Origin: an uncultured SAR86 cluster bacterium
GTDB lineage: Bacteria; Pseudomonadota; Gammaproteobacteria; Magnimaribacterales; D2472
Length of the DNA: 64,000 nucleotides
NCBI GenBank assembly: GCA_902602185.1
Contig: CACKPV010000002.1
Location: 210,506 to 274,505 of the forward strand
Reading direction: 5' to 3'
This document shows positions 6,028 to 50,862 of the stretch, piece by piece. The notes beneath the pieces were generated by a model, which saw nothing but the letters and a program-made list of their open reading frames with translations, was not told the origin of the DNA and ran no database searches. The translations under genes and the position numbers were made by a program. Position 1 is the stretch's first letter, and the number at the start of each line of letters is the position of its first letter.

Positions 6028-7002
6028 TTACAATTTTGCTTTAGATATAAACTTAGAAGTTGCATCACGAAACTCTTCCGATAACCTTGTCACAAGAGCA
6101 TCTACTGTGGGTGCATCTTCTATAAGCCCTATTCCTTGACCTGAGCCCCAAATGTCTTTCCAAGCTTTGGCATCCGTATTACCACCAGAACCAAAATTCA
6201 TGGTCGATTTATCTGCTGTTGGTAAGTTATTTGGGTCGAGACCAGCTTGCTCAATAGAAGGCTTGAGGTAATTACCTAAAACTCCAGTAAATAAGCTAGA
6301 ATAAACAATATCATCAGCAGCACTTTCAATGAGCATTTGTTTATAATTTTGATCGGCATTAGCTTCTTGTGTAGCGATAAACCTTGTCCCTAAGTAAGCA
6401 AAGTCTGCTCCAAGAGCAAGTGCACTAGCTACAGAATAGCCGTCTCCAATAGAACCAGACAAAATAATGGTTCCATCAAACCATTCTTGAACTTCTCGCA
6501 GCAATGCAAATGGAGACAGAGCACCAGCATGACCACCAGCACCAGCACATACTAAAATTAAACCATCGACTCCCATACTTGCTGCTTTTTTAGCATGTCT
6601 TACATTAATAACATCATGAAAAACCAAACCACCATAGCTATGAGCTGCATCGACTACTTCAGCAGGGGGTCGAAGAGAAGTAATAATGATTGGAACCTCA
6701 TGTTTGACACAGATTTCCATATCTCCCTGGAGTCGATCATTGGAGCCATGACATATTTGATTTACAGCAAATGGGGCTACTTTCTTATCAGGATTTGCTG
6801 CTTGATATTCAGCCAATTCACTTTTGATTTGAATAATCCACTCCTCGAGAACCTCTTGAGGTCTGGCATTTAGTGCTGGAAACGAGCCAATAATTCCTGC
6901 TTTACATTGAGCAATCACAAGCTCAGGTACTGAAATTAAAAAAAGTGGTGCTCCAATAACTGGTAGAGCAATGTTTTTACTTATGTGTTCTGGAATTGGC
7001 AT
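6028..7002 (-). CDS. Nitronate monooxygenase (NMO/2-nitropropane dioxygenase family)
   Basis: 324 aa. PVIGAPL.., GVDGLILVCAGAGGHAG, FAYLGTRFIAT motifs. Confidence 0.8.
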   Translation of the reverse strand: MPIPEHISKNIALPVIGAPLFLISVPELVIAQCKAGIIGSFPALNARPQEVLEEWIIQIKSELAEYQAANPDKKVAPFAVNQICHGSNDRLQGDMEICVKHEVPIIITSLRPPAEVVDAAHSYGGLVFHDVINVRHAKKAASMGVDGLILVCAGAGGHAGALSPFALLREVQEWFDGTIILSGSIGDGYSVASALALGADFAYLGTRFIATQEANADQNYKQMLIESAADDIVYSSLFTGVLGNYLKPSIEQAGLDPNNLPTADKSTMNFGSGGNTDAKAWKDIWGSGQGIGLIEDAPTVDALVTRLSEEFRDATSKFISKAKL

Positions 7003-12585: not shown

Positions 12586-13719
12586 TCAGAGGATCGATTG
12601 AAAAAGTTCCTTCACTAACAAAGGAGGTATGCCCTCCCCTGCAATTCTCCTTAAAAAAACTGGAGATGTATTGAGATCAATCTTATTTTCAAAATTTATA
12701 GAGAAAATTGTAAATAATTCCTTGATAGAAAAACTTCTTGCATCTGAATATAATCGACTGCTTTCATCTCCTGCCCTCAAAGTTTTTCCAGGATGTACAC
12801 AGGCTAGAGAAGACATGACTCCATTATTTTGAGTGAGTGTTCTCGAGGGTTTGTCCCATCGCATTCGTCGAAAGTGATTAGAGTGTCCAGACATTGGGTG
12901 TCCGTCATGACGTTTTGGGAAAAAAATTTCATTATCAAAAGCTGTTTTACCAGTGGGTGTTTTCTGCATAGCAATGACATCCTTTTTGGGATGCACAGGC
13001 GGTACATGCCATGAAGAGAATTTTTTTCCTCTTGCAGCTTTTCTTTTAAAGTTTGGGAACATAGCTAATGTTTCTGCCATACCTTCTCGTAATTGGGGAT
13101 CAAGCGATGGAAAATGGCCAATGGCTTCTTTCAAGGTAACAATATGGTTCTTTTTTGGAGGGAAATGCCAAAACTTTTTTTCATCCCTTCTTGTGAGCAA
13201 CATTATATTTCTTGGGCGCATTTGTGGAATCCCATAATCCATGGCCTTTATAAGATTTTCAGGATTAAAATAATAATAACGACTAAGTTGCTGCAATATA
13301 TAATCTGGAATAAGTATTTTTTTATTTTTTACTTTAATTCTAGTGGTTAGTTGTCGGGGAACATTTTCTAATAAAACAAATCTTGGAAGAATAGATTTAA
13401 TAACTTTTATAGCGTAATAAATAAGAAAATTTCTAGGGTCATCTTCTGATACTCTCCCAACTAAACTCATACCTTGACAGGGAGGTGTTGCCATAATTAC
13501 GTCTAGTTGATTTTCTTTGGCAATACGAATAAATTTTTTTTGGATATGTGTATCAGTGATGCTGCCAGATAACACTTCTGCATTAGGATGAATACTCTGA
13601 AAAAAATTACAACGGTCTTCACGAATTTCGTTGGCAACAATAGTTTTACAGCCTAGTTCATTCAGTCGACTTTCACCAACTCCACCTCCGCAAAACAAAG
13701 AACCTATTTTAAGACTCAT
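12586..13719 (-). CDS. DNA (cytosine-5)-methyltransferase, copy 1
   Basis: Motif I FCGGGVGE, IV TPPCQGMS, VI ENV, VIII QMRPR, X-like GEGIPP. 377 aa. Confidence 0.9.
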   Translation of the reverse strand: MSLKIGSLFCGGGVGESRLNELGCKTIVANEIREDRCNFFQSIHPNAEVLSGSITDTHIQKKFIRIAKENQLDVIMATPPCQGMSLVGRVSEDDPRNFLIYYAIKVIKSILPRFVLLENVPRQLTTRIKVKNKKILIPDYILQQLSRYYYFNPENLIKAMDYGIPQMRPRNIMLLTRRDEKKFWHFPPKKNHIVTLKEAIGHFPSLDPQLREGMAETLAMFPNFKRKAARGKKFSSWHVPPVHPKKDVIAMQKTPTGKTAFDNEIFFPKRHDGHPMSGHSNHFRRMRWDKPSRTLTQNNGVMSSLACVHPGKTLRAGDESSRLYSDARSFSIKELFTIFSINFENKIDLNTSPVFLRRIAGEGIPPLLVKELFQSIL

Positions 13720-14828
13720 ATGGGCATAGCTTTAAAACATAATTTTACAAACTCTGGGGGCACCCCTTCACCAATAACGGACCTTAGAAAAGGAGTATTT
13801 TCAGCTGATGATAATTTCCAGGACGGTTTGATTGTCATAACTAACATCAATTCATACATTGAGAGCACTCTTGCATCTGAATAGATAATGCCGTCTTTCG
13901 TTTGAACTTTTCTTCCTGGGTGGACATTAATATGTGAGGAAATGGTTCGGTTATGGGTTGTAACTGTTGGGCAGGGCTTATCCCAAGACATGCGTGCATA
14001 AGTTGTATTAAATGCACTAATAATTTTTCCATCAATCCTTCTTGGTTTAAATTTATTTATATTCTCAAATGCACTTTTTCCAGATGGTGTTTGCTGCATA
14101 CATATTATTTGCCTTATTGGATGTGACACCGGAGTATGAAATTCTGAAACCTTGAGTGCACTCTCTAATTTCTTATGAAATCGTGGAAAAACTTTTTCGG
14201 TTTGCACATTTGCATCAGAAACTATTGGATCTAGTGTTGGCAAATCATTTATGACATCTTTTAAAGTTAAGATTTTATTTTTGGGGTTAGGGAAATCCCA
14301 TGCTTGCGAAATATCTTTTCTAGTGAGTAAAAAAATTGATCTTTTACGCATTTGTGGAATGCCATAATCATCCATTTTGATATTCTTATTTTCAATAAAA
14401 TAATCTTTGCTAAGTTGTTTGCAAATAAATTCTGAAATAGTTACCTCTTTACCTCTGTAATTGATTAAGGTCTTATTCTGGTTTGGTACATTTTCATGAA
14501 AAATAAACTTTGGTTTCTTAGTTTTTATAAAATCAATTGAGTATTTCACTAAATGATTTCTTGGATCCATTTTTTCCATTCGACCTAAATTGCTCATGCC
14601 CTGACATGGTGGAGTGGAAATAACAAAATCGCAATCAAACTCTTTAAGCTTATTAAGAATTGTTTTTTTAGAAATATCTCCAACAATTACATTTGTATGG
14701 GGATGAAGTTTTTTATATAGATTGCACCTTTTGGGATCAATGTCATTTGCAGCTATGACTCTAAAGTTGGAGGGAAGAGATAACTCGCCGATCCCGATAT
14801 TGGCAAATAATGAAACTCCTTTGAGCAT
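13716..14828 (-). CDS. DNA (cytosine-5)-methyltransferase, copy 2 (paralogue of copy 1)
   Basis: Motif I variant FANIGIGE, IV TPPCQGMS, VI ENV, VIII QMRKR, X-like GEGVPP. Its stop overlaps the start of copy 1 (ATGA). Confidence 0.85.
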   Translation of the reverse strand: MLKGVSLFANIGIGELSLPSNFRVIAANDIDPKRCNLYKKLHPHTNVIVGDISKKTILNKLKEFDCDFVISTPPCQGMSNLGRMEKMDPRNHLVKYSIDFIKTKKPKFIFHENVPNQNKTLINYRGKEVTISEFICKQLSKDYFIENKNIKMDDYGIPQMRKRSIFLLTRKDISQAWDFPNPKNKILTLKDVINDLPTLDPIVSDANVQTEKVFPRFHKKLESALKVSEFHTPVSHPIRQIICMQQTPSGKSAFENINKFKPRRIDGKIISAFNTTYARMSWDKPCPTVTTHNRTISSHINVHPGRKVQTKDGIIYSDARVLSMYELMLVMTIKPSWKLSSAENTPFLRSVIGEGVPPEFVKLCFKAMPI

Positions 14829-22403: not shown

Positions 22404-23090
22404 TCATCGCCTTAATAGTATAACTGCCCAACGACCAAGGTTTAAGATGTCGGCTAGTGCAGCTGACACATAGGTGAGAGCTGCTGCCCTCAGAATACGG
22501 CTAACGGCTTTTTCGTTTGCAGGCGATACATAATTTCCTTCTCTCAATAAAGGCAGCGCTTTAGAAAAACTTGCATCAAATTCAATTGGTAAAGTCACAG
22601 CATGAACCATCATGCGAGCAATAAAACCGGACAGCCCTAAAACCAGCAAGAAAGAAAATGGCATTGGGTGCCGAGTAATAATACCGATCACCGGTGACAA
22701 AGAAAGGATAACAGCACTCCAACGGGCCACTTTGTCAACCACCGGAGCCATTTTTGTTCTGGTAGCTAGGCGTTTATCGCCTTGCTGATCCTGAATTGCA
22801 TGTCCAACCTCATGCGCAGCAATAGCAATTGCGGTTAACGATCTAGATTCATAATGCTCTTGCGACAGCCTAACTTTTTTTTCGATTGGATCGTAATGAT
22901 CTCCTAGCTCAGTTACTTCGACCTCTACATCTTTTAAAGAAAATCGCTCAATCAAATGCTTGGCAAGTTCTCCACCAGTGCCAGGGATTTCAGATTGCTC
23001 TGTTGAATATCTCCTCATCACCATCTTCACCCACAAAGATGGCCCAAATATTATTGCTATTACTATGAGCGCACCTGCTGCAAAAATCAT
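22404..23090 (-). CDS. Membrane zinc metallopeptidase (Zn_peptidase_2/YpfJ-like family)
   Basis: 228 aa. HEVGHAIQ zincin motif with flanking TM segments. Confidence 0.75.
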   Translation of the reverse strand: MIFAAGALIVIAIIFGPSLWVKMVMRRYSTEQSEIPGTGGELAKHLIERFSLKDVEVEVTELGDHYDPIEKKVRLSQEHYESRSLTAIAIAAHEVGHAIQDQQGDKRLATRTKMAPVVDKVARWSAVILSLSPVIGIITRHPMPFSFLLVLGLSGFIARMMVHAVTLPIEFDASFSKALPLLREGNYVSPANEKAVSRILRAAALTYVSAALADILNLGRWAVILLRR

Positions 23091-23201
23091 AAATTCTTTT
23101 CCTTACTTTTTCTATAAAGGTAAACGCGAATAAATCAACCTTTGCTCTTTCGAATTCTGCAGAATTAACTTTCTGAAATTGTCTTATAATAAAATCTAAT
23201 C

Positions 23202-23603
23202 ATGGAATCAAAATTGGCATACTTTGTTTTAGCCCTTATTTATTGTTTAATTTTTTGGTTGTTAGGTTTTATCCCTTTAGAGTGGACAAATGAGGTTTGT
23301 AGTTATGGCACAACCAGTCAGAAAGATATCCGTTTGTTACAGGAAGCCGGTGTACCTAAGACTTGTTTTGAACAAATGGATGGTTTTGTCTTTCCAAATT
23401 TATTAAAAATAATTTTTATTTTTTATATCACTTGGATTGTTATTGGTCTAACTGATGATACAAAACCCTTAGGAGATAGAATTATCTCAATTTTTCTATA
23501 TATGCCATTAAATATTGCTTTGTGTTTTTTGGTCTACACCAGTTTTTCTATTCTTTTGCAAGGTATGGGATTTTCTGGCTGGACTTCTTATGGATGGAAT
23601 TGA
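23202..23603 (+). CDS. Hypothetical membrane protein
   Basis: 133 aa, about 4 hydrophobic segments. Confidence 0.45.
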   Translation: MESKLAYFVLALIYCLIFWLLGFIPLEWTNEVCSYGTTSQKDIRLLQEAGVPKTCFEQMDGFVFPNLLKIIFIFYITWIVIGLTDDTKPLGDRIISIFLYMPLNIALCFLVYTSFSILLQGMGFSGWTSYGWN

Positions 23604-23627: not shown

Positions 23628-23645
23628 TCATTCGACGGTGACTGA
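23628..23645 (-). repeat. Pseudo-glmS terminus copy R4 (TCA GTC ACC GTC GAA TGA = SVTVE-stop)
   Basis: Read directly. Differs from the real glmS end only at third-codon positions and in the stop codon. Confidence 0.7.
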
Positions 23646-23688
23646 GTTGAACAAAACAGTGATTTAGTTTTTTGTCACTCATTTTTTA

Positions 23689-24093
23689 TCACAGTCCCAT
23701 TTTGTATGTCTTAAATCCTTTATGGCAAATACCAGATACGCCTGAAACCTCTCCAGGTATTTTATAAAAAGTCTTCATACTTGATCTATTAATTGAAAGA
23801 GTTCCAAATCCTGCCATGCTAAATCTTATTGAATCAGGTTTCACTTTGTATCCTGCGCTCTGAATCCTAACTTTTTGCCCATATTTTTTTGAGCGAATCC
23901 AAGTAAAATATGTTTTTGAGTTCAAATCATATTCACTTTTGCCATCAACCCTCATATACCAAGACTCTCTTTCTTTCGGAGGTACAAGAAAAATATAAAA
24001 AATACTGCTGCCCAATTCGCAAGTTAATTTATATTCAAAGTCTGCCTTTAAATTAAATGATAGTAGAGTAAGAGAAATTAAAAAAAATTTCAT
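23689..24093 (-). CDS. Hypothetical secreted protein
   Basis: 134 aa with signal peptide MKFFLISLTLLSFNLKA. Starts 20 nt after pseudo-terminus R3. Confidence 0.5.
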   Translation of the reverse strand: MKFFLISLTLLSFNLKADFEYKLTCELGSSIFYIFLVPPKERESWYMRVDGKSEYDLNSKTYFTWIRSKKYGQKVRIQSAGYKVKPDSIRFSMAGFGTLSINRSSMKTFYKIPGEVSGVSGICHKGFKTYKMGL

Positions 24094-24113
24094 TTTAAAA
24101 TCACTGTTTCCTT

Positions 24114-24131
24114 CTACTCTACCGTAACGGA
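24114..24131 (-). repeat. Pseudo-glmS terminus copy R3 (TCC GTT ACG GTA GAG TAG = SVTVE-stop)
   Basis: Read directly. Embedded in inverted repeat CTACTC-N10-GAGTAG (24114-24135). Confidence 0.75.
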
Positions 24132-24216
24132 GTAGTACGAAATGACTTTCTTATCTCTACTATTTCTGCGGATTTTGAAAGTGTTGAGGTCTGGTTGCAC
24201 ATATTGACAATAGTCT

Positions 24217-24549
24217 TTATAAAGAGTCTTCTCTGCTATTTAGTTTTGCGACACCTTCTCTTATTTCAATAACTGTTGCGATCATACCAAATGTTAATTC
24301 AAGAATGACCCACCAAGCAAAGCCAACAAATAGAGCAAAAAGAACGTATACGTTATCAATATACCTGTCGGTCAAAATATACACTATAGCGAAAACTGTA
24401 ATTATCCCAAGAGTGAAAATGTTTAAGATATATAAAATCTGAATCAGTGATTTAAATCTATCTGCTATGGATTTTATTCCTGGCTTATGTGTGTCTGTGT
24501 CACTTTCTTTTATAAGATCTTCTTCAAATAAGTTTTCAAGATCGCTCAT
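24217..24549 (-). CDS. Hypothetical membrane protein
   Basis: 110 aa, two TM segments. Confidence 0.45.
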   Translation of the reverse strand: MSDLENLFEEDLIKESDTDTHKPGIKSIADRFKSLIQILYILNIFTLGIITVFAIVYILTDRYIDNVYVLFALFVGFAWWVILELTFGMIATVIEIREGVAKLNSREDSL

Positions 24550-24551
24550 AT

Positions 24552-24728
24552 TTATTTAAGTTTTGATGAAAGCAGAAAAATAAAAACTCCAAGTAATATA
24601 TAAGGGATATTAAATATTGAATATAACTCTTGCGTCATGACAAAATCTATAACACCTAAATTATTTAGGATCCAATATATTGCTTGGATGATAAGTATAA
24701 TTCCTGTAATTTGGCCTAACTTTTTCAT
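24552..24728 (-). CDS. Small hypothetical membrane protein (58 aa)
   Basis: Own translation: MKKLGQITGIILIIQAIYWILNNLGVIDFVMTQELYSIFNIPYILLGVFIFLLSSKLK. Its stop is 2 nt from the next ATG. Confidence 0.35.
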   Translation of the reverse strand: MKKLGQITGIILIIQAIYWILNNLGVIDFVMTQELYSIFNIPYILLGVFIFLLSSKLK

Positions 24729-24902
24729 AATATTATTCTGCCATAAGTACTTAAAAATGTCCTATTAATACACACAGAAGATCGCAACAGGTCATATCAA
24801 ACCCTTATGACTACTGCTAACACGAAAAAATAGATGAAAATTTTAGGGTGATTTTTACCAGGGTTAAGTTTTAGTGATTTTTGAAACCCCCGCAGAATGC
24901 GA

Positions 24903-24932
24903 GGTCAAAACCAAAAGTAGTTCGAAACTACT
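24903..24932 (-). terminator. Intrinsic terminator overlapping the stop of pseudo-terminus R2
   Basis: Minus strand AGTAGTT-TCG-AACTACT (perfect 7-bp stem) followed by TTTTGGTTTTG. Confidence 0.55.
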
Positions 24933-24945
24933 CCACCGTCACTGA
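24928..24945 (-). repeat. Pseudo-glmS terminus copy R2 (TCA GTG ACG GTG GAG TAG = SVTVE-stop)
   Basis: Read directly. Inverted repeat CTACTC-N10-GAGTAG (24928-24949). Confidence 0.8.
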
Positions 24946-25019
24946 GTAGATTAAACTGCTTACTTGTTGGTTTATGGAATCTAATTAAAAATTCTATGTG
25001 CCTTTCTTTCATTAAACTT

Positions 25020-25406
25020 CTATGTTGTTTTGCTGAACTTCTTGTGAGTCAATGTAAACAAACATGCTCCAATTATAGTCCATAGAATATCATTCCAATC
25101 GAAGACACCTCTTCCAGGTGTAAAAATTGTAATGAACTCATTGGCAATTAATCCCAATATGGAGATTCCTACTGACCAATAGAGTCGATTTTTAAATAAA
25201 GATGAATTAGTTTTGGATACTTCTGGAATCACCACATATAACAGAGCAGGCAATCCAATTCCTGGCAAGAAATTTGGAGCAACCCCAAGAAGATAAATTA
25301 TTATTTCATTAGCACCATTATAATTTGGTCTTATATAATCCTGGACTATAGAAAAAAGCAAAAAAGAAATAGCAAAAATAATGTAATAAACGAACTTTCT
25401 ATTCAT
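25020..25406 (-). CDS. VanZ-like membrane protein (tentative)
   Basis: 128 aa, 4 TM segments. FDWNDILWTIIGA resembles the VanZ C-terminal motif. Confidence 0.45.
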   Translation of the reverse strand: MNRKFVYYIIFAISFLLFSIVQDYIRPNYNGANEIIIYLLGVAPNFLPGIGLPALLYVVIPEVSKTNSSLFKNRLYWSVGISILGLIANEFITIFTPGRGVFDWNDILWTIIGACLFTLTHKKFSKTT

Positions 25407-25465
25407 TTTTATGTTTTATCACTAATATTTAATATCCACAATCTTGTAAAAGTGGACAGTTCTAT

Positions 25466-25483
25466 CTACTCCACCGTAACTGA
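25466..25483 (-). repeat. Pseudo-glmS terminus copy R1 (TCA GTT ACG GTG GAG TAG = SVTVE-stop)
   Basis: Read directly. 16 of 18 nt identical to the real end. A TAA codon lies immediately 5' of the Ser codon. Confidence 0.8.
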
Positions 25484-25491
25484 TTATATTT
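25480..25491. repeat. 12-bp direct repeat CTGATTATATTT, left copy
   Basis: Exact match to 25947-25958. Overlaps the Ser codon of R1. Confidence 0.7.
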
Positions 25492-25588
25492 GAAATCATT
25501 TTTATAGTTAATCATTTTTTATTTCTTTAAAAGAGTTTAGAAAAAATATATGTATATATTTGTTGTAGCATATGTTTAAATAATATAC

Positions 25589-25912
25589 ATGAAAAATGTA
25601 TTTATAATTTTAGTTAGTTTTGTAGCTTTGTCAGCTTGCGTATCAAACGATACAGTCCAAACTGTTGATATTAGAGACTTTGATTTAAATTGTGATCAAT
25701 TGAAATATGAGTTGACACAACTAGGAGTTAAGTTTGAAGAGGCTGAGGATGACTCTGGGCTAACTGGCAAAAATGTTGCTTTAGGTATTTTCTTTTGGCC
25801 TGGAATAATTGTTAATGAAAGACAAGCCGGTAGAAATGAGGATTCAATAAATAAGAGAATTGAACATCTAAATAAACTCTATGTTGATAAGTGTGTCGGT
25901 CAAAACAATTAA
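25589..25912 (+). CDS. Hypothetical lipoprotein
   Basis: 107 aa. Lipobox VALSAC. Confidence 0.5.
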   Translation: MKNVFIILVSFVALSACVSNDTVQTVDIRDFDLNCDQLKYELTQLGVKFEEAEDDSGLTGKNVALGIFFWPGIIVNERQAGRNEDSINKRIEHLNKLYVDKCVGQNN

Positions 25913-25932
25913 CTGATACATAATTTAGAAAT

Positions 25933-25950
25933 TTATTTTAAAGTAGCTGA
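25933..25950 (-). repeat. Decayed pseudo-glmS terminus copy (TCA GCT ACT TTA AAA TAA = SATLK-stop)
   Basis: Same length, register and orientation. Followed by the same TTATATTT flank as R1. Confidence 0.4.
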
Positions 25951-25958
25951 TTATATTT
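25947..25958. repeat. 12-bp direct repeat CTGATTATATTT, right copy
   Basis: Exact match to 25480-25491. Confidence 0.7.
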
Positions 25959-26090
25959 AAAGAGGTTTGACATAACTTCTTATAAATTTCTTTATGGTTC
26001 TAGTTGACGTTCTCAATATTCCTTATCAACTCTTATAAGTTCTCATAAAACAAAAAATCGTTAATTGTTTTAAGGGTAAGTTTTTATGGT

Positions 26091-26118
26091 TAAAAATTAA
26101 GAGGATTCATCAGAACCC
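26091..26118 (-). terminator. Possible glmS terminator
   Basis: Minus strand GGGTTC-TGAT-GAATCC (6 bp, one G-U pair) followed by TCTTAATTTTT. Lies 36 nt after the glmS stop. Confidence 0.4.
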
Positions 26119-26153
26119 CACAGAGTCAGTAGTTTATGAAAGTGATTTCAAAT

Positions 26154-27980
26154 CTACTCCACTGTGACTGACTTAGCAAGGTTACGTGGTTGGTCAAGAT
26201 CAGTGCCTCGCAAGCAAGCTACTTCATAGGCAAGAATTTGTAACGGGATGGTATAAATAATCGGAGCATTAAAGTCTCCGCACTCAGGCATGTTAATAAA
26301 TTTTCCTTTTTTAATTTCGATGGTGGAACGATTATTACCGAAGACATAAAGTGTGCCCCCACGGGCTTTAACTTCCTCGAGATTGGAAAGCAGTTTCTCA
26401 ACCAAGCTATCCTCTGGGGCAACTGCTACAACGGGGATATCTTCATCAACCAGAGCTAATGGACCGTGTTTTAACTCCCCTGCAGGGTAAGCCTCGGCAT
26501 GAATATAAGAAATCTCTTTGAGCTTCAATGCGCCTTCCTGCGCAATGGGAAAGTACATGCCTCGACCTAAAAACAGAGAATTTTCTTTTTCTGAAATATT
26601 TTTTGTAATGTAATTTATATCTTCCAGTAGCTCGAAAGCCTCTTGGATGAGCGCAGGAGTATTACGTAAATCTTGGACGGCTTGTTGGCGTAGTTCAGTA
26701 TTTTTGTTTTGACTCTTAGCAATAGCAACAGCAAGCATAAGCAAGGCAGCAAGTTGGGTAGTAAAAGCTTTGGTTGATGCCACTCCAATTTCTGGTCCGG
26801 CATTCGTAAAAATTTTCCAATCCGACTCTCTGGCCATTGTGCTGGTGGGAACATTGCAAATAGTTACCGTACCCAAATATTCTTTTTGTTTTGCATATTC
26901 AAGAGCGGCTAAAGTATCAGCAGTTTCTCCAGATTGTGAAATACAGACAAATAAGGTGTTATTTTCTACCAACGGATTACGATAACGATACTCACTAGCA
27001 AAATCGACATAGCAAGGTGTCTCACAAATTCTTTCGAACCAAGATCTTGCTACTTTAGCAGCATGTAAACTGGTCCCGCATGCTACGAATTGAATGCGTT
27101 TAATGTCAGCAAAGGCTTTGCTAGAGTCGATGCCAAAAATATTGTCAGCAACATCCATTTCTAGAAGACGTCCGTCAATAGTATTAGCTACAGCTTCGGG
27201 CTGCTCATAAATTTCTTTTTCCATATAATGCTTATAATTTCCCTTGCTTGTAGCAGTCGCAGTAGCATCAATTACAGTTTCTTTCCGATCTACAGAATGG
27301 CCGTTGGCATCAAAGATATTAATATCATGCTTTGTAATATGGGCAAACTCATCGTCCTCTAATAAAAAAAATTGCTCAGTAATATTGATAATTGAAAGGG
27401 GGTCTGAAGCAACAAAATTTTCTTCAATACCTTGCCCTACTAAAAGTGGGCTCTTATGCCTAGCAGCAAAAATACTACCTTTGACTGAAGCATCAATCAT
27501 TGCAATTGCATAAGCCCCTCGCAAATCCTGAGTTGCATTCATTAAAGCTTTAAGGGAATCTTGAGTAGTTTGTTTGTGAAAGTGAATAAGGTGAGCAATT
27601 AACTCGGAATCAGTTTCTGATTTCATTGTGTAACCAGCATCGGTAAGTTGCTTTTTTAGTTCGCTGTGATTTTCAATGATGCCATTGTGAACGATAAATA
27701 TCTCTTCATGAGAATCATGCGGGTGAGCATTTTGTTTGCTGGGTTGTCCATGGGTGGCCCATCGGGTATGAGCAATGCCTGACTTTGCTTTGGGTTTATG
27801 CTCAATCATCAGAGATTCTAGCTCAGCAACTTTACCCAGTGCTCGCAGTCGGACTATCTGATCTTTTTGGTGAAGAGCTACTCCGGCAGAGTCATAGCCA
27901 CGATATTCCATTAAATGCAGTCCTTTTATGAGAATTTTGCCAACACTTCGTGATGAAGTTGCCCCAATAATGCCACACAT
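26154..27980 (-). CDS. glmS: Glutamine--fructose-6-phosphate aminotransferase
   Basis: 608 aa. MCGIIG N-terminal nucleophile, SIS domains, canonical C-terminus LAKSVTVE. Confidence 0.97.
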   Translation of the reverse strand: MCGIIGATSSRSVGKILIKGLHLMEYRGYDSAGVALHQKDQIVRLRALGKVAELESLMIEHKPKAKSGIAHTRWATHGQPSKQNAHPHDSHEEIFIVHNGIIENHSELKKQLTDAGYTMKSETDSELIAHLIHFHKQTTQDSLKALMNATQDLRGAYAIAMIDASVKGSIFAARHKSPLLVGQGIEENFVASDPLSIINITEQFFLLEDDEFAHITKHDINIFDANGHSVDRKETVIDATATATSKGNYKHYMEKEIYEQPEAVANTIDGRLLEMDVADNIFGIDSSKAFADIKRIQFVACGTSLHAAKVARSWFERICETPCYVDFASEYRYRNPLVENNTLFVCISQSGETADTLAALEYAKQKEYLGTVTICNVPTSTMARESDWKIFTNAGPEIGVASTKAFTTQLAALLMLAVAIAKSQNKNTELRQQAVQDLRNTPALIQEAFELLEDINYITKNISEKENSLFLGRGMYFPIAQEGALKLKEISYIHAEAYPAGELKHGPLALVDEDIPVVAVAPEDSLVEKLLSNLEEVKARGGTLYVFGNNRSTIEIKKGKFINMPECGDFNAPIIYTIPLQILAYEVACLRGTDLDQPRNLAKSVTVE

Positions 27981-44693: not shown

Positions 44694-45992
44694 ATGATAA
44701 GCAACTGGGAACAAGTAACAAAAGAACTTTCAAAAAGAATTAATAAAGAAGAGTTTGACACATGGATCAAACCTTTGAGGGGAGATTTGAAAAACAACAA
44801 GCTTGAGCTCAGAGCCCCCAACAACTTCATTTTCAACTATGTAAGGAAAAATTTTGCTGAAGAAATAGAAAAAATCCTTGAAAAAAGCAACATAAGTTTG
44901 AATATTATCAACACCAATAACGAGACATTTGTTGACAAATACGTCATTAAGAAAAAAGCGCACTCCTCTCCTGATACTGGACTTGTTAAAAACTTTATAT
45001 TTGAGAATTTTGTTGAGGGAAAATCAAACCATATTGCACTAGCTGCATCACAACAAGTTGCTCAAAACCCTTCCGGAGACTATAACCCATTATTTATTTA
45101 TGGTGGTGTTGGTCTTGGCAAGACCCATTTAATGCATGCAGTTGGCAATGCAATTTTAAAAAAAGACCATAACAAAAAAGTGGTTTATGTCCATTCAGAA
45201 AAGTTTGTTGCGGACATGGTCAAGGCCATACAGTTAAATGCTATAAATGAATTTAAGAGCTTTTACAGAACTGCAGACGCACTTTTAATTGATGATATTC
45301 AGTTTTTTGCTGGCAAGGAGCAATCACAAGAAGAGTTTTTCCACACCTTTAATGCGCTTTTGGACAGAAACAATCAAATGGTTTTAACTTGTGACAAATA
45401 CCCCAAAGAAATTGATGGTTTAGAGGAAAGACTGAAATCAAGACTTGGTTGGGGGTTGCCTGTGGTGATTGATCCCCCAGAATTAGAAACCAGAGCTGCT
45501 GTGCTTTTAAAAAAGGCATCATTAATGGGCTTGGTTTTGCCTAATGACTGTGCAATTTATATAGCACAGAGAATTCGCTCCAATATAAGGGAGTTAGAGG
45601 GTGCATTAAAAAGGGTTGCTGCAAACTCAAGGTTTACCAACCAAGAAATAGATTTAGCTCTTGTGAAGGATGCGCTTAAAGATTTGTTTGTTATTTCGGC
45701 AAAGATGGTAAGCGTTGAAAACATTCAAAAAACAGTTGCCGAGTATTACAACATAAAACTTTCGGACCTTCTTTCAAAAAGAAGAAGCAGATCTATCACC
45801 AGACCAAGACAACTTGCTATGGCCCTTACCAAAGAGTTGACCAATCACAGTTTGCCGGAAATAGGTGAAAGCTTTAATGGAAGAGATCATACTACCGTTA
45901 TTCATGCATGTAATAAAATTAAAGAATTAAGAGCAGAAAACTCTTCTTTAGAAGAAGATTATAGGAATTTAACAAGAACGCTAACCAATTAA
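44694..45992 (+). CDS. dnaA: Chromosomal replication initiator DnaA
   Basis: 432 aa. Walker [11 protein letters not shown] and C-terminal HTH ..[10 protein letters not shown]. Confidence 0.97.
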
Positions 45993-47164
45993 TGAATTTT
46001 TTAATAAGCAAAGACGAAATGCTTGCGGCCCTTAACAAGTGTATAGGACTTGCAACAAAAGGGGATAGCCCACTTACAGAAAATGTAAAAATTGATGTTG
46101 GAGATGAAGATATTACTTTTACAACATCAGACAGACAGTCCCAAATAATTGCATCATGTCCTTCATCCAAAATAAAAACAAAAGGAGTAACCTGTGTTAA
46201 TGCTAAAAAAGTTAATGAACTTTTTAGACTTTTACCAGATAAAGAAGACATTAATGTTTTTTTAGATGGCAACAAGTTAAAAATTAAAACAACCGGAGGA
46301 AGTTGGGAGCTTTCTAATTTCCCTAGTGAAGATTTTCCAGTTTTTAATGTAAACAATGAGGACACCACACAAGTCTCAATAACCTCGCAAAGTCTGACTG
46401 ATTTGATTTCAAGGACTTTAATATCAATGCCAAGAACGGGCGGCCTTAATACGAAGCTTGTGGACGGGATTTTGTTTGAGTTTTCAAACAATGAGATGTC
46501 TGCCACAACTTACGATGGACATAGAATATCGTCTTCAAAAGAAAAAGCATCTGCGCAAGATGATCAGACTGCCTCTTGTATCGTCCCAAGAAGGGCAGTA
46601 ACCGAAATAAGCAAGATTATTTCAGGGTCTCAAGAGGACATTAAATTTTCAATTGGCAAAAACAACTTAATCTTAAAAACAAAATCTGTTGAACTTAAGT
46701 CAAGCCTTATTCTCAAACCTTTTGTGCCATATCAAACAGCAATCAACCCCTCTGAGTTTTCTCTTTTAAAAGTAAACACTAAAGAATTTTCAGATGCTCT
46801 AAACAGAGCTTCGTTGCTTGCCAACTCTGAGATGAGGGAAGTCATGCTTACTTGCTCTCAAAATAAAATTTACATAGAAAGTTTAAACAGAATGTCAGCT
46901 GAGAAAAGTAGTGAATCAATAGATGCGACCTATGATGGGGAGGAAATACAAGTCATTTTTAATGTGAGATATTTGTTAGATGCGTTATCTGTCATGGGTT
47001 CAGAAATAACTGAAATAATGGTTTTTTTCGAGCTAAATAAAAAAAGTGATTCAGTTAAATATAGGTGGATTTTAAAACATGAGGGCAAAGATCACACAAA
47101 ATTTTTCATAGCCGCAATAGTTCCAGTTGTAACACCTGCAATAGAGTCATCTGAAAGCAGCTAA
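45992..47164 (+). CDS. dnaN: DNA polymerase III beta sliding clamp
   Basis: 390 aa. Position after dnaA; three-domain clamp pattern. Confidence 0.9.
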   Translation: MNFLISKDEMLAALNKCIGLATKGDSPLTENVKIDVGDEDITFTTSDRQSQIIASCPSSKIKTKGVTCVNAKKVNELFRLLPDKEDINVFLDGNKLKIKTTGGSWELSNFPSEDFPVFNVNNEDTTQVSITSQSLTDLISRTLISMPRTGGLNTKLVDGILFEFSNNEMSATTYDGHRISSSKEKASAQDDQTASCIVPRRAVTEISKIISGSQEDIKFSIGKNNLILKTKSVELKSSLILKPFVPYQTAINPSEFSLLKVNTKEFSDALNRASLLANSEMREVMLTCSQNKIYIESLNRMSAEKSSESIDATYDGEEIQVIFNVRYLLDALSVMGSEITEIMVFFELNKKSDSVKYRWILKHEGKDHTKFFIAAIVPVVTPAIESSESS

Positions 47165-47173
47165 CTACTAGAC

Positions 47174-50862
<3,689 letters not shown>

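What the first reader, a model, noticed from the sequence alone, without database searches (positions are those of the whole stretch)
23628..26171. Array of pseudo-copies of the glmS C-terminal codons (S-V-T-V-E-stop) that differ only at synonymous positions
The real glmS ends (minus strand) TCA GTC ACA GTG GAG TAG at 26171-26154. Four more same-orientation copies lie downstream. 25483-25466 reads TCA GTT ACG GTG GAG TAG. 24945-24928 reads TCA GTG ACG GTG GAG TAG. 24131-24114 reads TCC GTT ACG GTA GAG TAG. 23645-23628 reads TCA GTC ACC GTC GAA TGA. Every difference is at a third-codon position or inside the stop codon, so all five read SVTVE-stop. 5' of the Ser codon the copies are unrelated to GlmS; in R1 a TAA sits directly before it. 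A random 18-mer encoding SVTVE-stop is expected far less than once in 64 kb. Four extra copies clustered in 2.5 kb directly behind glmS, all co-oriented, is therefore non-random. Drift confined to wobble positions suggests one of two things. Each copy may once have been a translated glmS terminus, here or in a donor genome. Alternatively the copies may be maintained by a factor that reads the non-wobble bases, as TnsD does at attTn7. The copies cut the region into 0.5-0.8 kb units, each carrying one or two small membrane, secreted or lipoprotein ORFs. That resembles stepwise cassette accretion at the glmS 3' end. No integrase, transposase or tns gene lies within 26 kb downstream.
Basis: partly seen in the sequence, partly recalled or inferred. 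Interest (0 to 1): 0.85.

Follow-up and report, generated by a model that had tools for sequence, protein, structure and literature searches.

The report
Mini gene-cassette array behind glmS
The repeated "SVTVE-stop" strings are the joints between four tiny mobile gene cassettes stacked at the end of the essential glmS gene of a SAR86 marine bacterium, and related genomes indicate that a serine recombinase cutting in the middle of that string inserts and removes them, much as an integron does but with a different enzyme.

Summary
Five co-oriented TCN-GTN-ACN-GTN-GAR-stop strings lie at the stated coordinates, where shuffles give none.

They are the attachment-site cores of a head-to-tail array of four small units (688, 538, 814 and 486 bp) at the 3' end of glmS in a SAR86 bacterium. 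Each unit has imperfect terminal inverted repeats next to its cores. An excised circle would therefore carry an attP-like palindrome of about 54 bp centred on the invariant AC of the Thr codon.

Contigs encoding the identical GlmS protein carry different sets of units, swapped exactly core to core. Unit B is 95-96% identical in a lineage whose glmS DNA is only about 70% identical. In 160 related loci, every core in the arrays read from glmS lies on the glmS strand. The only opposite-strand cores sit in an inverted segment of two recombinase-bearing contigs.

Linkage across 354 junctions places strand exchange between core positions 6 and 9. That is the 2-bp crossover a serine recombinase makes.

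Rare units of about 8 kb in the same position, with the same kind of arms, encode a large serine recombinase plus a small resolvase (L189, L191, L200). L100 shows their circular junction. The window has no recombinase, so its units are non-autonomous.

The closest analogue is SCC/ECC at rlmH. Cassettes this small, targeting glmS, are new. Recombinase activity is inferred, not shown.

The parts
26154..27980 (-). glmS (608 aa). Its last 18 nt serve as the chromosomal attachment site (attB core).
   Evidence: ORF. Pfam GATase_6/7 + SIS on the identical protein, and atp-glmU-glmS synteny.
26154..26171 (-). Core R0, TCAGTCACAGTGGAGTAG: the real glmS end. It is an attL-like junction, with the glmS coding arm on the left and the P' arm of unit A' on the right.
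   Evidence: In relatives with identical glmS DNA, positions 9-18 of this core change with the first unit.
25484..26153 (-). Unit A' (688 bp from core start to core start). It has a ~190-bp shared leader (25960-26153) and a 107-aa ORF on the opposite strand (25589-25912, +). Arms: 26135-26159 and 25482-25506.
   Evidence: Inverted repeat I2, 25 nt, 84%. Gapped arm score 17 against a null of 6.6 +/- 1.3. The leader is shared with unit A of L009-L012 and L189. No Pfam hit for the ORF.
25466..25483 (-). Core R1, TCAGTTACGGTGGAGTAG (junction A'/B).
24946..25465 (-). Unit B (538 bp), carrying a 128-aa membrane ORF (25020-25406, -). Arms: 25450-25471 and 24944-24965.
   Evidence: Inverted repeat I16, 22 nt, 77%. 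Arm score 12 against a null of 5.3 +/- 1.1, though the highest of 500 shuffles reached 15. 99% identical in L009, and 95-96% identical in L002 and L157 although L002's glmS DNA is only ~70% identical. Weak VanZ-like hit below threshold.
24928..24945 (-). Core R2, TCAGTGACGGTGGAGTAG (junction B/C).
   Evidence: In L009 the same core joins B directly to D.
24132..24927 (-). Unit C (814 bp). It has a ~200-bp shared leader (24729-24927), a 58-aa ORF (24552-24728, -) and a 110-aa ORF (24217-24549, -). It is absent from L009 exactly core to core.
   Evidence: The arms pair only with gaps: score 11 against a null of 5.8 +/- 1.3, equalled by the highest shuffle.
24114..24131 (-). Core R3, TCCGTTACGGTAGAGTAG (junction C/D).
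23646..24113 (-). Unit D (486 bp), carrying a 134-aa secreted/lipoprotein-like ORF (23689-24093, -). Arms 24098-24119 and 23644-23665 are of the common AACAGTGATTT / AAATCACTGTT type.
   Evidence: Inverted repeat I5, 22 nt, 86%. Arm score 16 against a null of 6.3 +/- 1.4. 100% identical in L009.
23628..23645 (-). Core R4, TCAGTCACCGTCGAATGA: the terminal attR-like junction. The P arm of unit D plus its left half-core is joined to what is probably the ancestral glmS terminus (GTC GAA TGA) and the native downstream flank.
   Evidence: Several GAATGA cores sit at the distal end of arrays next to non-array DNA, for example L009, L115 and L147.
22404..23603 (.). Conserved chromosomal flank beyond the array: a 133-aa ORF (23202-23603, +) and Zn_peptidase_2 (22404-23090, -). 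The same flank lies behind the different arrays of L009, L046, L060 and L189.

Best explanation
Window 23628-26171 is a head-to-tail array of four non-autonomous integrative cassettes sitting in the attachment site formed by the last 18 nt of glmS.

Each cassette carries half of an attP-like site at each end: a P' arm just after the core on its glmS-proximal side and a complementary P arm just before the next core. Recombination between the two flanking cores would release a circle whose joint is P arm - TCNGTN - AC - NGTNGAR-stop - P' arm. That is an imperfect palindrome of about 54 bp with the consensus AAATCACTGTTYAAAN-YTAC-TC...GA-GTAR-NTTTRAACAGTGATTT.

A serine recombinase supplied in trans cuts at the central AC dinucleotide, which is the first two bases of the Thr codon, and exchanges the halves. 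The recombinase is encoded by rare units of about 8 kb of the same family, which carry a ~570-aa large serine recombinase (LSR) next to their P arm plus a ~200-aa resolvase-type enzyme.

When a unit enters next to glmS, its right half-core (NGT NGA R + stop) replaces the end of glmS. Only units that keep ...T-V-E-stop are tolerated, which explains the wobble-only variation there. AC is not palindromic, so all units go in one orientation.

Shown: the array anatomy, block-wise polymorphism, horizontal spread, the crossover position, co-location of the recombinases with cognate arms, and a circular-type junction. Inferred: that the LSR (or its small partner) is the enzyme, that it acts in trans on the small units, and how units travel between cells.
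For: Anatomy of the window:
- Five cores where shuffles give none.
- Each unit has cognate terminal inverted repeats.

Across 160 loci and 224 distinct units (149-9584 bp, median 640 bp):
- A unit's own arms match at 12.8 of 20 positions, against 9.2 for arms of different units (Mann-Whitney p = 6e-35).
- The two half-sites share a symmetric consensus.
- Every core in the arrays read from glmS is on the glmS strand. The only opposite-strand cores are in the inverted segments of L194/L195.

Modularity:
- Contigs encoding the identical GlmS protein carry A'-B-C-D (window), E-A-B-D (L009), A-F-G... (L010) or A-B... (L011/L012), with boundaries exactly at the cores.
- The P0020 and P0029 GlmS groups behave the same way.

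Horizontal spread: unit B is 95-96% identical in L002, while the glmS DNA of the two genomes is about 70% identical.

Crossover, from 354 junctions:
- Pairs with the same left flank but a different right flank share position 3 (0.89) and position 6 (0.50), but sit at baseline for positions 9-18.
- Pairs with the same right flank but a different left flank share positions 9, 12, 15 and 18 (0.81-0.89) and sit at baseline for positions 3 and 6.
- In L200 the host glmS spells Ser as AGC, but the distal core starts with TCA, so its left half came from the element.

Recombinase:
- The L100 581-aa ORF has Resolvase and Recombinase domains and the motif YTRVSTAEQ.
- L189, a 694-kb chromosomal contig, reads glmS-core-[7.7 kb, small Resolvase, LSR ending ~50 bp before the P arm]-core-4 small units-core-...-Zn_peptidase_2.
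- L191 and L200 have the same layout.
- L100 joins the LSR end to the resolvase end through one core with perfect 19-nt cognate arms. This is the circular or tandem junction.
Against: - No recombinase is encoded in the 64-kb window, and I could not examine the rest of this genome. Activity in this strain is therefore unproven, and the array may be a fossil.
- LSR-bearing units are rare in the sample: none in about 33 glmS-anchored loci, and only a few among 120 pattern-selected loci.
- Canonical LSRs recombine only attP with attB. Here the internal junctions are P+P' and the glmS junction is B+P'. Insertion or deletion at internal junctions (unit C) needs a permissive enzyme or the small recombinase, and this was not tested.
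- Position 6 is only half linked to the left flank, and a few junctions do not fit a single clean crossover (A-B against A-F).
- The 120 metagenome loci were selected with one arm motif, which biases the arm consensus. A consensus without those junctions is similar but weaker.
- No excised mini-circle of a small unit was observed.
Confidence: 0.8

Rival explanations
1. The small resolvase/invertase-type serine recombinase (~200 aa) co-encoded with the LSR is the enzyme that shuffles the cassettes, recombining like sites (P-core-P') with each other. The LSR would then serve only to dock the large element at glmS.
For: A small Resolvase + HTH_7 gene accompanies the LSR in every complete autonomous element seen: L100, L189, L191, L196/L198/L199 and L200. 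Small serine recombinases act on two identical sites with a 2-bp crossover, which fits P+P' internal junctions better than canonical LSR rules do. The inverted segment with opposite-strand cores in L194/L195 is what an invertase would produce.
Against: The 54-bp site size and the position of the LSR gene, abutting the P arm, are typical of LSR integrases. Small recombinases usually need accessory sites or enhancers and favour deletion or inversion over integration. No data here separate the two enzymes.
Confidence: 0.12
2. This is an integron-like or Xer-like system: a tyrosine recombinase (IntI, XerCD or a phage-type integrase) recombines the cores, and the serine recombinases are just cargo.
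For: The resemblance is superficial: arrays of small, mostly co-oriented cassettes of unknown function, palindromic recombination sites, and no recombinase beside most arrays.
Against: - No tyrosine recombinase appears in any Pfam-annotated context.
- The palindrome is split between the two ends of each unit, so the crossover is at its centre, not at one edge as in attC.
- Exchange is confined to the interval between positions 6 and 9. Positions 6 and 9 themselves differ freely between partners, which is incompatible with the identical 6-8-bp overlap that tyrosine recombinases need (established knowledge of that family; data).
- The array lies about 18 kb from dnaA, not at the terminus where dif lies.
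Confidence: 0.03
3. These are Tn7-like or TnsD-guided insertions at attTn7, or remnants of them.
Against: - No tnsABCD-like genes appear in the window or in any fetched locus.
- Tn7 inserts downstream of glmS with a 5-bp duplication and does not duplicate the coding end (established knowledge).
- Here the duplicated string is the last 18 nt of the gene, the crossover is inside it, and the unit ends bear no relation to TnsB-type end repeats.
Confidence: 0.01
4. The array is an inert fossil, or a product of homologous recombination between short repeats or of assembly error, with no dedicated machinery.
For: The window has no recombinase. The cargo parts of units A' and C were not found elsewhere in the sample.
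Against: - The same design appears in about 160 independent contigs, including single-cell genomes and contigs of 694 and 763 kb.
- Unit-specific complementary arms and a fixed crossover point are not expected from homologous recombination.
- Near-identical units occur in divergent lineages.
- Strains with the identical GlmS protein differ by whole units, so turnover is recent.
Confidence: 0.04

Closest known systems
Staphylococcal cassette chromosome (SCC/SCCmec) and enterococcal cassette chromosome (ECC) at rlmH/orfX, moved by the CcrAB/CcrC large serine recombinases
   Same: A large serine recombinase targets the last codons of a conserved housekeeping gene. The element restores the gene's end. 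[quoted passage not shown] Several att copies or composite elements lie behind the gene, cargo is highly variable, and remnants without recombinase occur (PMC6222049; recombinase-less pseudo-SCC and tandem SCC are from my own knowledge).
   Different: - The target gene is glmS, not rlmH.
- The host is a streamlined marine gammaproteobacterium, not a Firmicute.
- The LSR is only about 24% identical to phage LSR integrases and to staphylococcal 'recombinase family' proteins on plasmids, and its relation to CcrA/CcrB proper was not tested.
- It is paired with a small resolvase rather than a second LSR.
- Units are 20-100 times smaller (median 640 bp, down to ~150-250 bp, against 21-78 kb for ECC), mostly one or two genes, in arrays of up to 7 cores. 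The behaviour is closer to integron cassettes than to islands.
Integrons (IntI tyrosine recombinase, attI, attC cassettes; CALIN arrays without integrase)
   Same: Arrays of very small, mostly co-oriented, mostly single-gene cassettes of unknown function. Each has an imperfect palindromic recombination site whose sequence varies but whose two arms stay complementary. Cassettes are shared between lineages, and many arrays lack a recombinase.
   Different: The associated enzyme class is serine, not tyrosine. The site is cut at the centre of the palindrome, so each cassette carries half a site at each end. The docking site is inside an essential gene's coding end rather than an attI next to intI. 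Many cassettes bring their own promoter-like leader.
Tn7 / attTn7 (TnsD recognition of the glmS 3' end)
   Same: It exploits the very conserved C-terminal coding sequence of glmS as a safe, universally present landing site.
   Different: The mechanism is unrelated: a transposase with a 5-bp target duplication that inserts downstream of the stop codon. No tns genes are present, and the coding end is not duplicated by Tn7.
Tycheposons of Prochlorococcus and other marine bacteria
   Same: These are integrative elements that build hypervariable islands by repeated site-specific insertion at one locus in streamlined ocean bacteria, leaving partial copies of the target as repeats. A minority encode large serine recombinases (bioRxiv 10.1101/2020.12.28.424599).
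   Different: Tycheposons use tRNA genes, mostly tyrosine recombinases, and kilobase-scale elements with replication modules. That preprint does not mention glmS, and this search of it gave nothing on sub-kilobase recombinase-less cassettes.

Membership tests
Large serine recombinase (LSR) integrative element | Recombinase with an N-terminal resolvase catalytic domain carrying the Ser nucleophile, followed by the 'Recombinase' domain, a zinc ribbon and a coiled coil | tested here: met
   L100 581-aa ORF: PF00239 (3.9e-8) and PF07508 (1.4e-15), with the motif YTRVSTAEQ. Several homologues also carry PF13408. Cys pairs and a long heptad-like stretch are visible in the sequence. No PDB sequence match at E <= 1e-3. 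None of this is encoded in the window itself.
Large serine recombinase (LSR) integrative element | attP of about 50 bp with imperfect dyad symmetry around a central non-palindromic dinucleotide where the strands are exchanged | tested here: met
   The symmetric half-site consensus spans about 54 bp. L100's circular-type junction has 19-nt perfect arms. Linkage places exchange between positions 6 and 9, at the invariant AC. This is comparative inference, not a cleavage assay.
Large serine recombinase (LSR) integrative element | Recombinase gene lies inside the element next to one att site, and the element is flanked by attL/attR hybrids | tested here: met
   In L189, L191 and L200 the LSR stops 40-50 bp before the P arm and the distal core, with cognate arms at both ends of the 7.7-11.5-kb element. 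This is not met by the window's four units, which have arms but no recombinase.
Large serine recombinase (LSR) integrative element | Strict attP x attB directionality, with excision needing a directionality factor | tested here: inconclusive
   The arrays imply recombination at B+P' and P+P' junctions, which departs from the canonical rule. It can only be settled by biochemistry.
SCC-type cassette chromosome | Integration into the 3' end of rlmH (orfX) by Ccr recombinases | tested here: not met
   The target here is glmS. The LSR is only about 24% identical to staphylococcal plasmid-borne 'recombinase family' proteins. So this works like SCC but is not a member of that family.
Integron / CALIN | IntI tyrosine recombinase, and attC sites that are self-contained hairpins between cassettes with R''/R' boxes and the crossover at the R' edge | tested here: not met
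   No tyrosine recombinase appears in any annotated context. The complementary arms sit at opposite ends of each unit, and the crossover is at the centre.
Tn7-like transposon at attTn7 | tnsABC(D) genes, TnsB-binding end repeats, a 5-bp target duplication, and insertion downstream of the glmS stop codon | tested here: not met
   No such genes are in the window or in the related loci. The duplicated sequence is the 18-nt coding end, with the crossover inside it.

The most novel reading that the evidence does not exclude
SAR86, and by the look of L197 and L200 other marine bacteria too, run a serine-recombinase counterpart of the integron. The end of glmS would act as a universal docking site where an ocean-wide pool of sub-kilobase, often self-promoted gene cassettes is captured, stacked, reshuffled and exchanged between lineages. 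The pool would be serviced in trans by rare 8-kb 'driver' elements that encode an LSR and a small resolvase. This array would be the long-unresolved hypervariable region of SAR86 genomes.
Probability: 0.5. Interest if true: 0.88.

Novelty: new variant of a known kind. Interest (0 to 1): 0.78.

Why it matters
SAR86 is among the most abundant bacteria of the surface ocean. The 2012 genome study reported at least one hypervariable region that blocked assembly (PMC3358033). I found no mention of this locus in the 2024 isolate paper or in the other searches.

This finding gives that variability a concrete, testable mechanism and a simple sequence handle: the 18-nt core plus its arms. With that handle, the cassette pool can be mined from metagenomes.

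It would also be a second, mechanistically independent route to integron-style cassette arrays. It shows how an essential gene's terminus can be used as a landing site without damage, because the incoming site re-encodes the last codons.

The recombinase and its roughly 54-bp site, with a target conserved across bacteria, could also be useful as an integration tool.

The cargo includes restriction-modification systems and many small envelope proteins. That suggests a role in phage defence and cell-surface variation in a streamlined genome with few other mobile elements.

Tried and rejected
- **Structured RNA in the shared ~200-bp leader.** No Rfam match. The RNAalifold consensus is weak (-9.3 kcal/mol) with an unfavourable covariation term. 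Dropped.
- **Phage attP.** The IMG/VR scan for the palindromic core gave 32 hits. All are coding motifs of a high-GC phage protein or the reverse strand of a giant Thr-rich repeat ORF, so none is relevant.
- **L068's 71-aa 'Recombinase (weak)' ORF.** It is only a helix-turn-helix fragment with no catalytic domain.
- **An early inference that the first 12 nt of each core travel with the left unit.** This came from 3 junctions and was overturned by the 354-junction analysis.
- **Integron R''/R' boxes.** I looked for them by eye in the arms and found only chance resemblances to RYYYAAC.
- **Promoter/terminator scan of the array.** Counts were no higher than in shuffles, so I make no claim about expression signals beyond what the leader alignment shows.
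- **PDB sequence search with the LSR.** No hit at E <= 1e-3.
- **Literature.** Seven searches and five papers read found no description of glmS-linked serine-recombinase cassette arrays. The library is incomplete, so prior description elsewhere cannot be excluded.

Full report
**1.

The minus strand of the window carries TCN GTN ACN GTN GAR + stop at 26154-26171, 25466-25483, 24928-24945, 24114-24131 and 23628-23645. The degenerate pattern matches five times in the window and never in 100 dinucleotide-preserving shuffles. It has no match on the other strand or elsewhere in the 64 kb. The first copy is the true end of a 608-aa GlmS. All differences between copies are synonymous or keep a stop codon.

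**2.

The sequence just after core n is the reverse complement of the sequence just before core n+1.
- For three of the four units the repeat finder reports this directly: 25 nt at 84%, 22 nt at 77% and 22 nt at 86% (I2, I16, I5). The fourth unit pairs only with gaps.
- Arm scores are 17, 12, 11 and 16, against shuffled means near 6 +/- 1.3. For B and C the highest of 500 shuffles reached the observed score.
- The pairing runs into the cores: GAGTAR on one side pairs with YTAC+TC on the other.
- The stop codon's last base co-varies with the base four positions before the next core (TAG with CTAC, TAA with TTAC).

If a unit were excised by recombination between its two cores, the circle would carry a palindrome of about 54 bp around a 10-nt centre, NGTNACNGTN.

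**3. Organism and relatives**

The closest GlmS genes in reference genomes (77% identity) are from SAR86 single-cell genomes. The window also holds dnaA, dnaN, recF, gyrB and the parAB-atp-glmU-glmS block.
- All four SAR86 relatives have one to three extra co-oriented cores behind glmS.
- A Clostridia MAG (L008) with 10 kb of downstream sequence has none.

**4. Units are discrete, interchangeable blocks**

Looking up the exact GlmS protein gave five other contigs. The arrangements are:
- Window: A'(688)-B(538)-C(814)-D(486).
- L009, a single-cell genome: E(646)-A(1031)-B(538)-D(486), followed by the same chromosomal flank (133-aa ORF, Zn_peptidase_2, 112-aa ORF, sulfatase).
- L010: A-F(246)-G...
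- L011 and L012: A-B....

Unit C is absent from L009 exactly from core to core. Two other GlmS variants behave the same way: identical glmS DNA is followed by different first units.

Unit B is 95-96% identical in L002, whose glmS DNA is about 70% identical to the window's. That means recent horizontal transfer of a 0.5-kb unit between divergent lineages.

**5. Larger sample**

Adding the glmS-anchored and recombinase-anchored loci gives 160 loci, 254 units (224 distinct by their ends) and 354 distinct junctions.
- Unit sizes run from 149 to 9584 bp, with a median of 640 bp. Arrays reach seven cores.
- In every locus read from glmS or from the scan, all cores lie on one strand. The only opposite-strand cores are in the inverted segments of L194/L195.
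- Where a contig extends upstream, the array nearly always starts at the real glmS end. In the exceptions (L147, L186) it starts 0.3-0.5 kb further on.
- A unit's own arms match better than arms of different units (12.8 against 9.2 of 20 positions, p = 6e-35). Even non-cognate arms exceed random, because both half-sites share the consensus AAATCACTGTTYAAAN-YTAC-TC.
- The scan motif biases this consensus. Leaving out the junctions that match the motif gives a weaker version of the same consensus.

**6. Where the strands are exchanged**

I asked which neighbour each variable core position travels with.

| Junction pairs compared | pos 3 | pos 6 | pos 9 | pos 12 | pos 15 | pos 18 |
|---|---|---|---|---|---|---|
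| Same left flank, different right flank | 0.89 | 0.50 | 0.34 | 0.47 | 0.52 | 0.50 |
| Same right flank, different left flank | 0.36 | 0.29 | 0.83 | 0.81 | 0.84 | 0.89 |
| Both flanks different (baseline) | 0.37 | 0.26 | 0.34 | 0.42 | 0.56 | 0.49 |

Values are the fraction of junction pairs that share the same base. Exchange therefore falls between positions 6 and 9, at the invariant AC, which is the centre of the palindrome.

L200 gives an independent check. The host glmS there spells Ser as AGC, yet the distal core begins with TCA, so its left half came from the element.

A point crossover at a central, non-palindromic dinucleotide is the hallmark of serine recombinases (established knowledge). 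It also explains the single orientation of all units.

**7. The recombinase**

- *L100.* This 2971-bp metagenome contig has a 581-aa ORF with Resolvase and Recombinase domains and the motif YTRVSTAEQ. It ends about 55 bp before a core flanked by perfect 19-nt cognate arms, followed by a 203-aa Resolvase + HTH_7 protein.
- *The family.* The 581-aa protein belongs to a marine family of about 570 aa, with 161 hits.
- *L189.* On a 694-kb Gammaproteobacteria contig the order is atp-glmU-glmS-core-[7.7-kb unit with cognate arms, about ten unannotated ORFs, a 198-aa resolvase, and a 568-aa LSR ending ~50 bp before the P arm]-core, then four small units, a final core and Zn_peptidase_2.
- *L191 and L200.* L191 repeats the layout with an 8.1-kb element. 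L200 repeats it on a 763-kb contig at 44% GC, with an LSR about 50% identical.
- *L100 as a circular form.* L100 is a circular permutation of an L191-type element. Its LSR end and its resolvase end are joined through one core. This is the junction expected of an excised circle or a tandem copy.
- *Distance from known enzymes.* The LSR is only about 24% identical to phage LSR integrases and to staphylococcal 'recombinase family' proteins on plasmids.
- *The window.* It encodes none of these, and LSR units are rare in the sample. The window's four units are therefore best read as non-autonomous passengers.

**8. Why only wobble positions vary**

With exchange at AC, a unit entering next to glmS donates positions 9-18, which become the translated ...(T)VE-stop of an essential gene. 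In internal copies the non-wobble positions of this half almost never deviate (0-3 of 297).

Positions 1-6 stay with the unit's P arm and are never translated. Their non-wobble positions deviate a little more often (about 10 of 297 each), yet most variation is still at positions 3 and 6. Coding selection cannot explain that. My inference is that the recombinase, which must recognise glmS ends across hosts with different codon usage, reads the non-wobble bases.

The terminal core of the window (GTC GAA TGA plus an AT-rich flank) is probably the ancestral glmS end displaced by the first insertion. Several GAATGA cores in other arrays also sit at the distal edge.

**9. Open problems**

- Canonical LSRs join only attP to attB. 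Here the internal junctions are P+P' and the glmS junction is B+P', yet unit C is gained or lost internally. Either the LSR is permissive, as reported for CcrAB (my own knowledge), or the small resolvase handles like-site reactions.
- I found no transfer genes, so the route between cells is unknown.
- How cargo comes to lie between a P' arm and a P arm is unknown.
- Many units share a ~200-bp leader with a GC hairpin, promoter-like hexamers, AAGGAG and a conserved mini-ORF (M-A-E-stop) just before the cargo start. It has no supported RNA fold.

**10. Comparison and novelty**

Functionally this is closest to SCC/ECC elements. In both, an LSR docks variable elements into the last codons of a conserved gene (rlmH), att sites are about 50 bp with inverted repeats, and several att copies lie behind the gene (PMC6222049). 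It is not a member of that family: the target gene, the recombinase lineage and the partner enzyme all differ.

In scale and behaviour it resembles integron cassette arrays, but it fails every defining feature of integrons. It is not Tn7-like.

I found no description of it in searches of the open literature. The 2012 SAR86 genome paper reported an unresolved hypervariable region, and most SAR86 glmS contigs in metagenomes stop just past glmS.

I rate it a new variant of a known kind. The anatomy and population behaviour are shown. The enzymology is inferred.

Noticed in passing
window 25960-26153 and 24729-24927 (minus strand); also L001 5191-5395, L003 12392-12596, L009 11828-12030 and many others: A conserved non-coding 'leader' of about 200 bp starts at the core in a subclass of otherwise unrelated units. 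It has a GC hairpin (CCTCGCATTCTGCGGGG), an AAAAATCAC motif, promoter-like hexamers, AAGGAG and a conserved mini-ORF ATG GCA GAA TAA a few nt before the cargo ATG. There is no Rfam hit and no supported fold.
   Followed up: partly
L100 13-76; L191 about 6568-6633: Upstream of the LSR gene, a P-arm motif (AAATCACTGTT) and a P'-arm motif (AACAGTGATTT, overlapping the start codon) bracket the promoter and ribosome-binding site. They are about 44 nt apart with no core between them. This pseudo-att site could be an autoregulatory operator or a fossil junction.
   Followed up: no
L194 about 775-2547 and L195 about 127-2665: A second LSR gene (568 aa) and cores lie on the opposite strand inside an LSR element. 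This inverted segment is the only place where cores were seen on the other strand.
   Followed up: no
L197 2641-4023 (Alphaproteobacteria MAG GCA_030746975.1): An LSR homologue (46% identity) is followed by TCAACCACTGTGGAGTAG. About 1.4 kb further on there is a decoy glmS 3' fragment reading ...DQPRNLVITVTVE-stop with the same downstream flank. No glmS gene is present in the 12 kb held.
   Followed up: partly
L179 11034-11740 and L185 3645-4352: A 231-aa (L179) or 213-aa (L185) C-terminal remnant of the LSR, with a P arm and a GAATGA core. In L179 it lies 9.6 kb from a 613-aa glmS, separated by housekeeping-looking genes. L185 shows no glmS.
   Followed up: no
L147 1911-2453; L186 3501-3856: In one lineage glmS ends AGY GTN ACC GTC GAA TGA with a native-looking flank, and the array begins 0.3-0.5 kb further on at a remnant resembling the glmS coding arm (aaccttgctacg...). 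Similar glmS-like right arms recur inside arrays (L002, L004, L046, L081).
   Followed up: partly
window 12586-14828 (minus strand): Two adjacent ORFs (377 and 370 aa) have N-terminal FxGxG-type motifs and look like cytosine-5 DNA methyltransferases. I did not check them against Pfam. DNA methylase / restriction-modification genes are also common cargo in glmS arrays of relatives (L059, L081, L125, L168).
   Followed up: no
window 44694-50163: dnaA, dnaN, recF and gyrB lie here, so the glmS array sits only about 18 kb from the likely replication origin.
   Followed up: no
L003 12371-12388; L004 14420-14437; L085: Degenerate cores whose first codon has mutated (TTC GTC ACG GTC GAG TAA, reading F-V-T-V-E-stop). 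Decay falls in the never-translated left half, and strict pattern searches miss such cores.
   Followed up: partly
one search hit table (P0001-P0120): Most metagenomic contigs carrying SAR86 glmS are only 2-5 kb long and end just past glmS, so the array systematically breaks short-read assemblies.
   Followed up: partly
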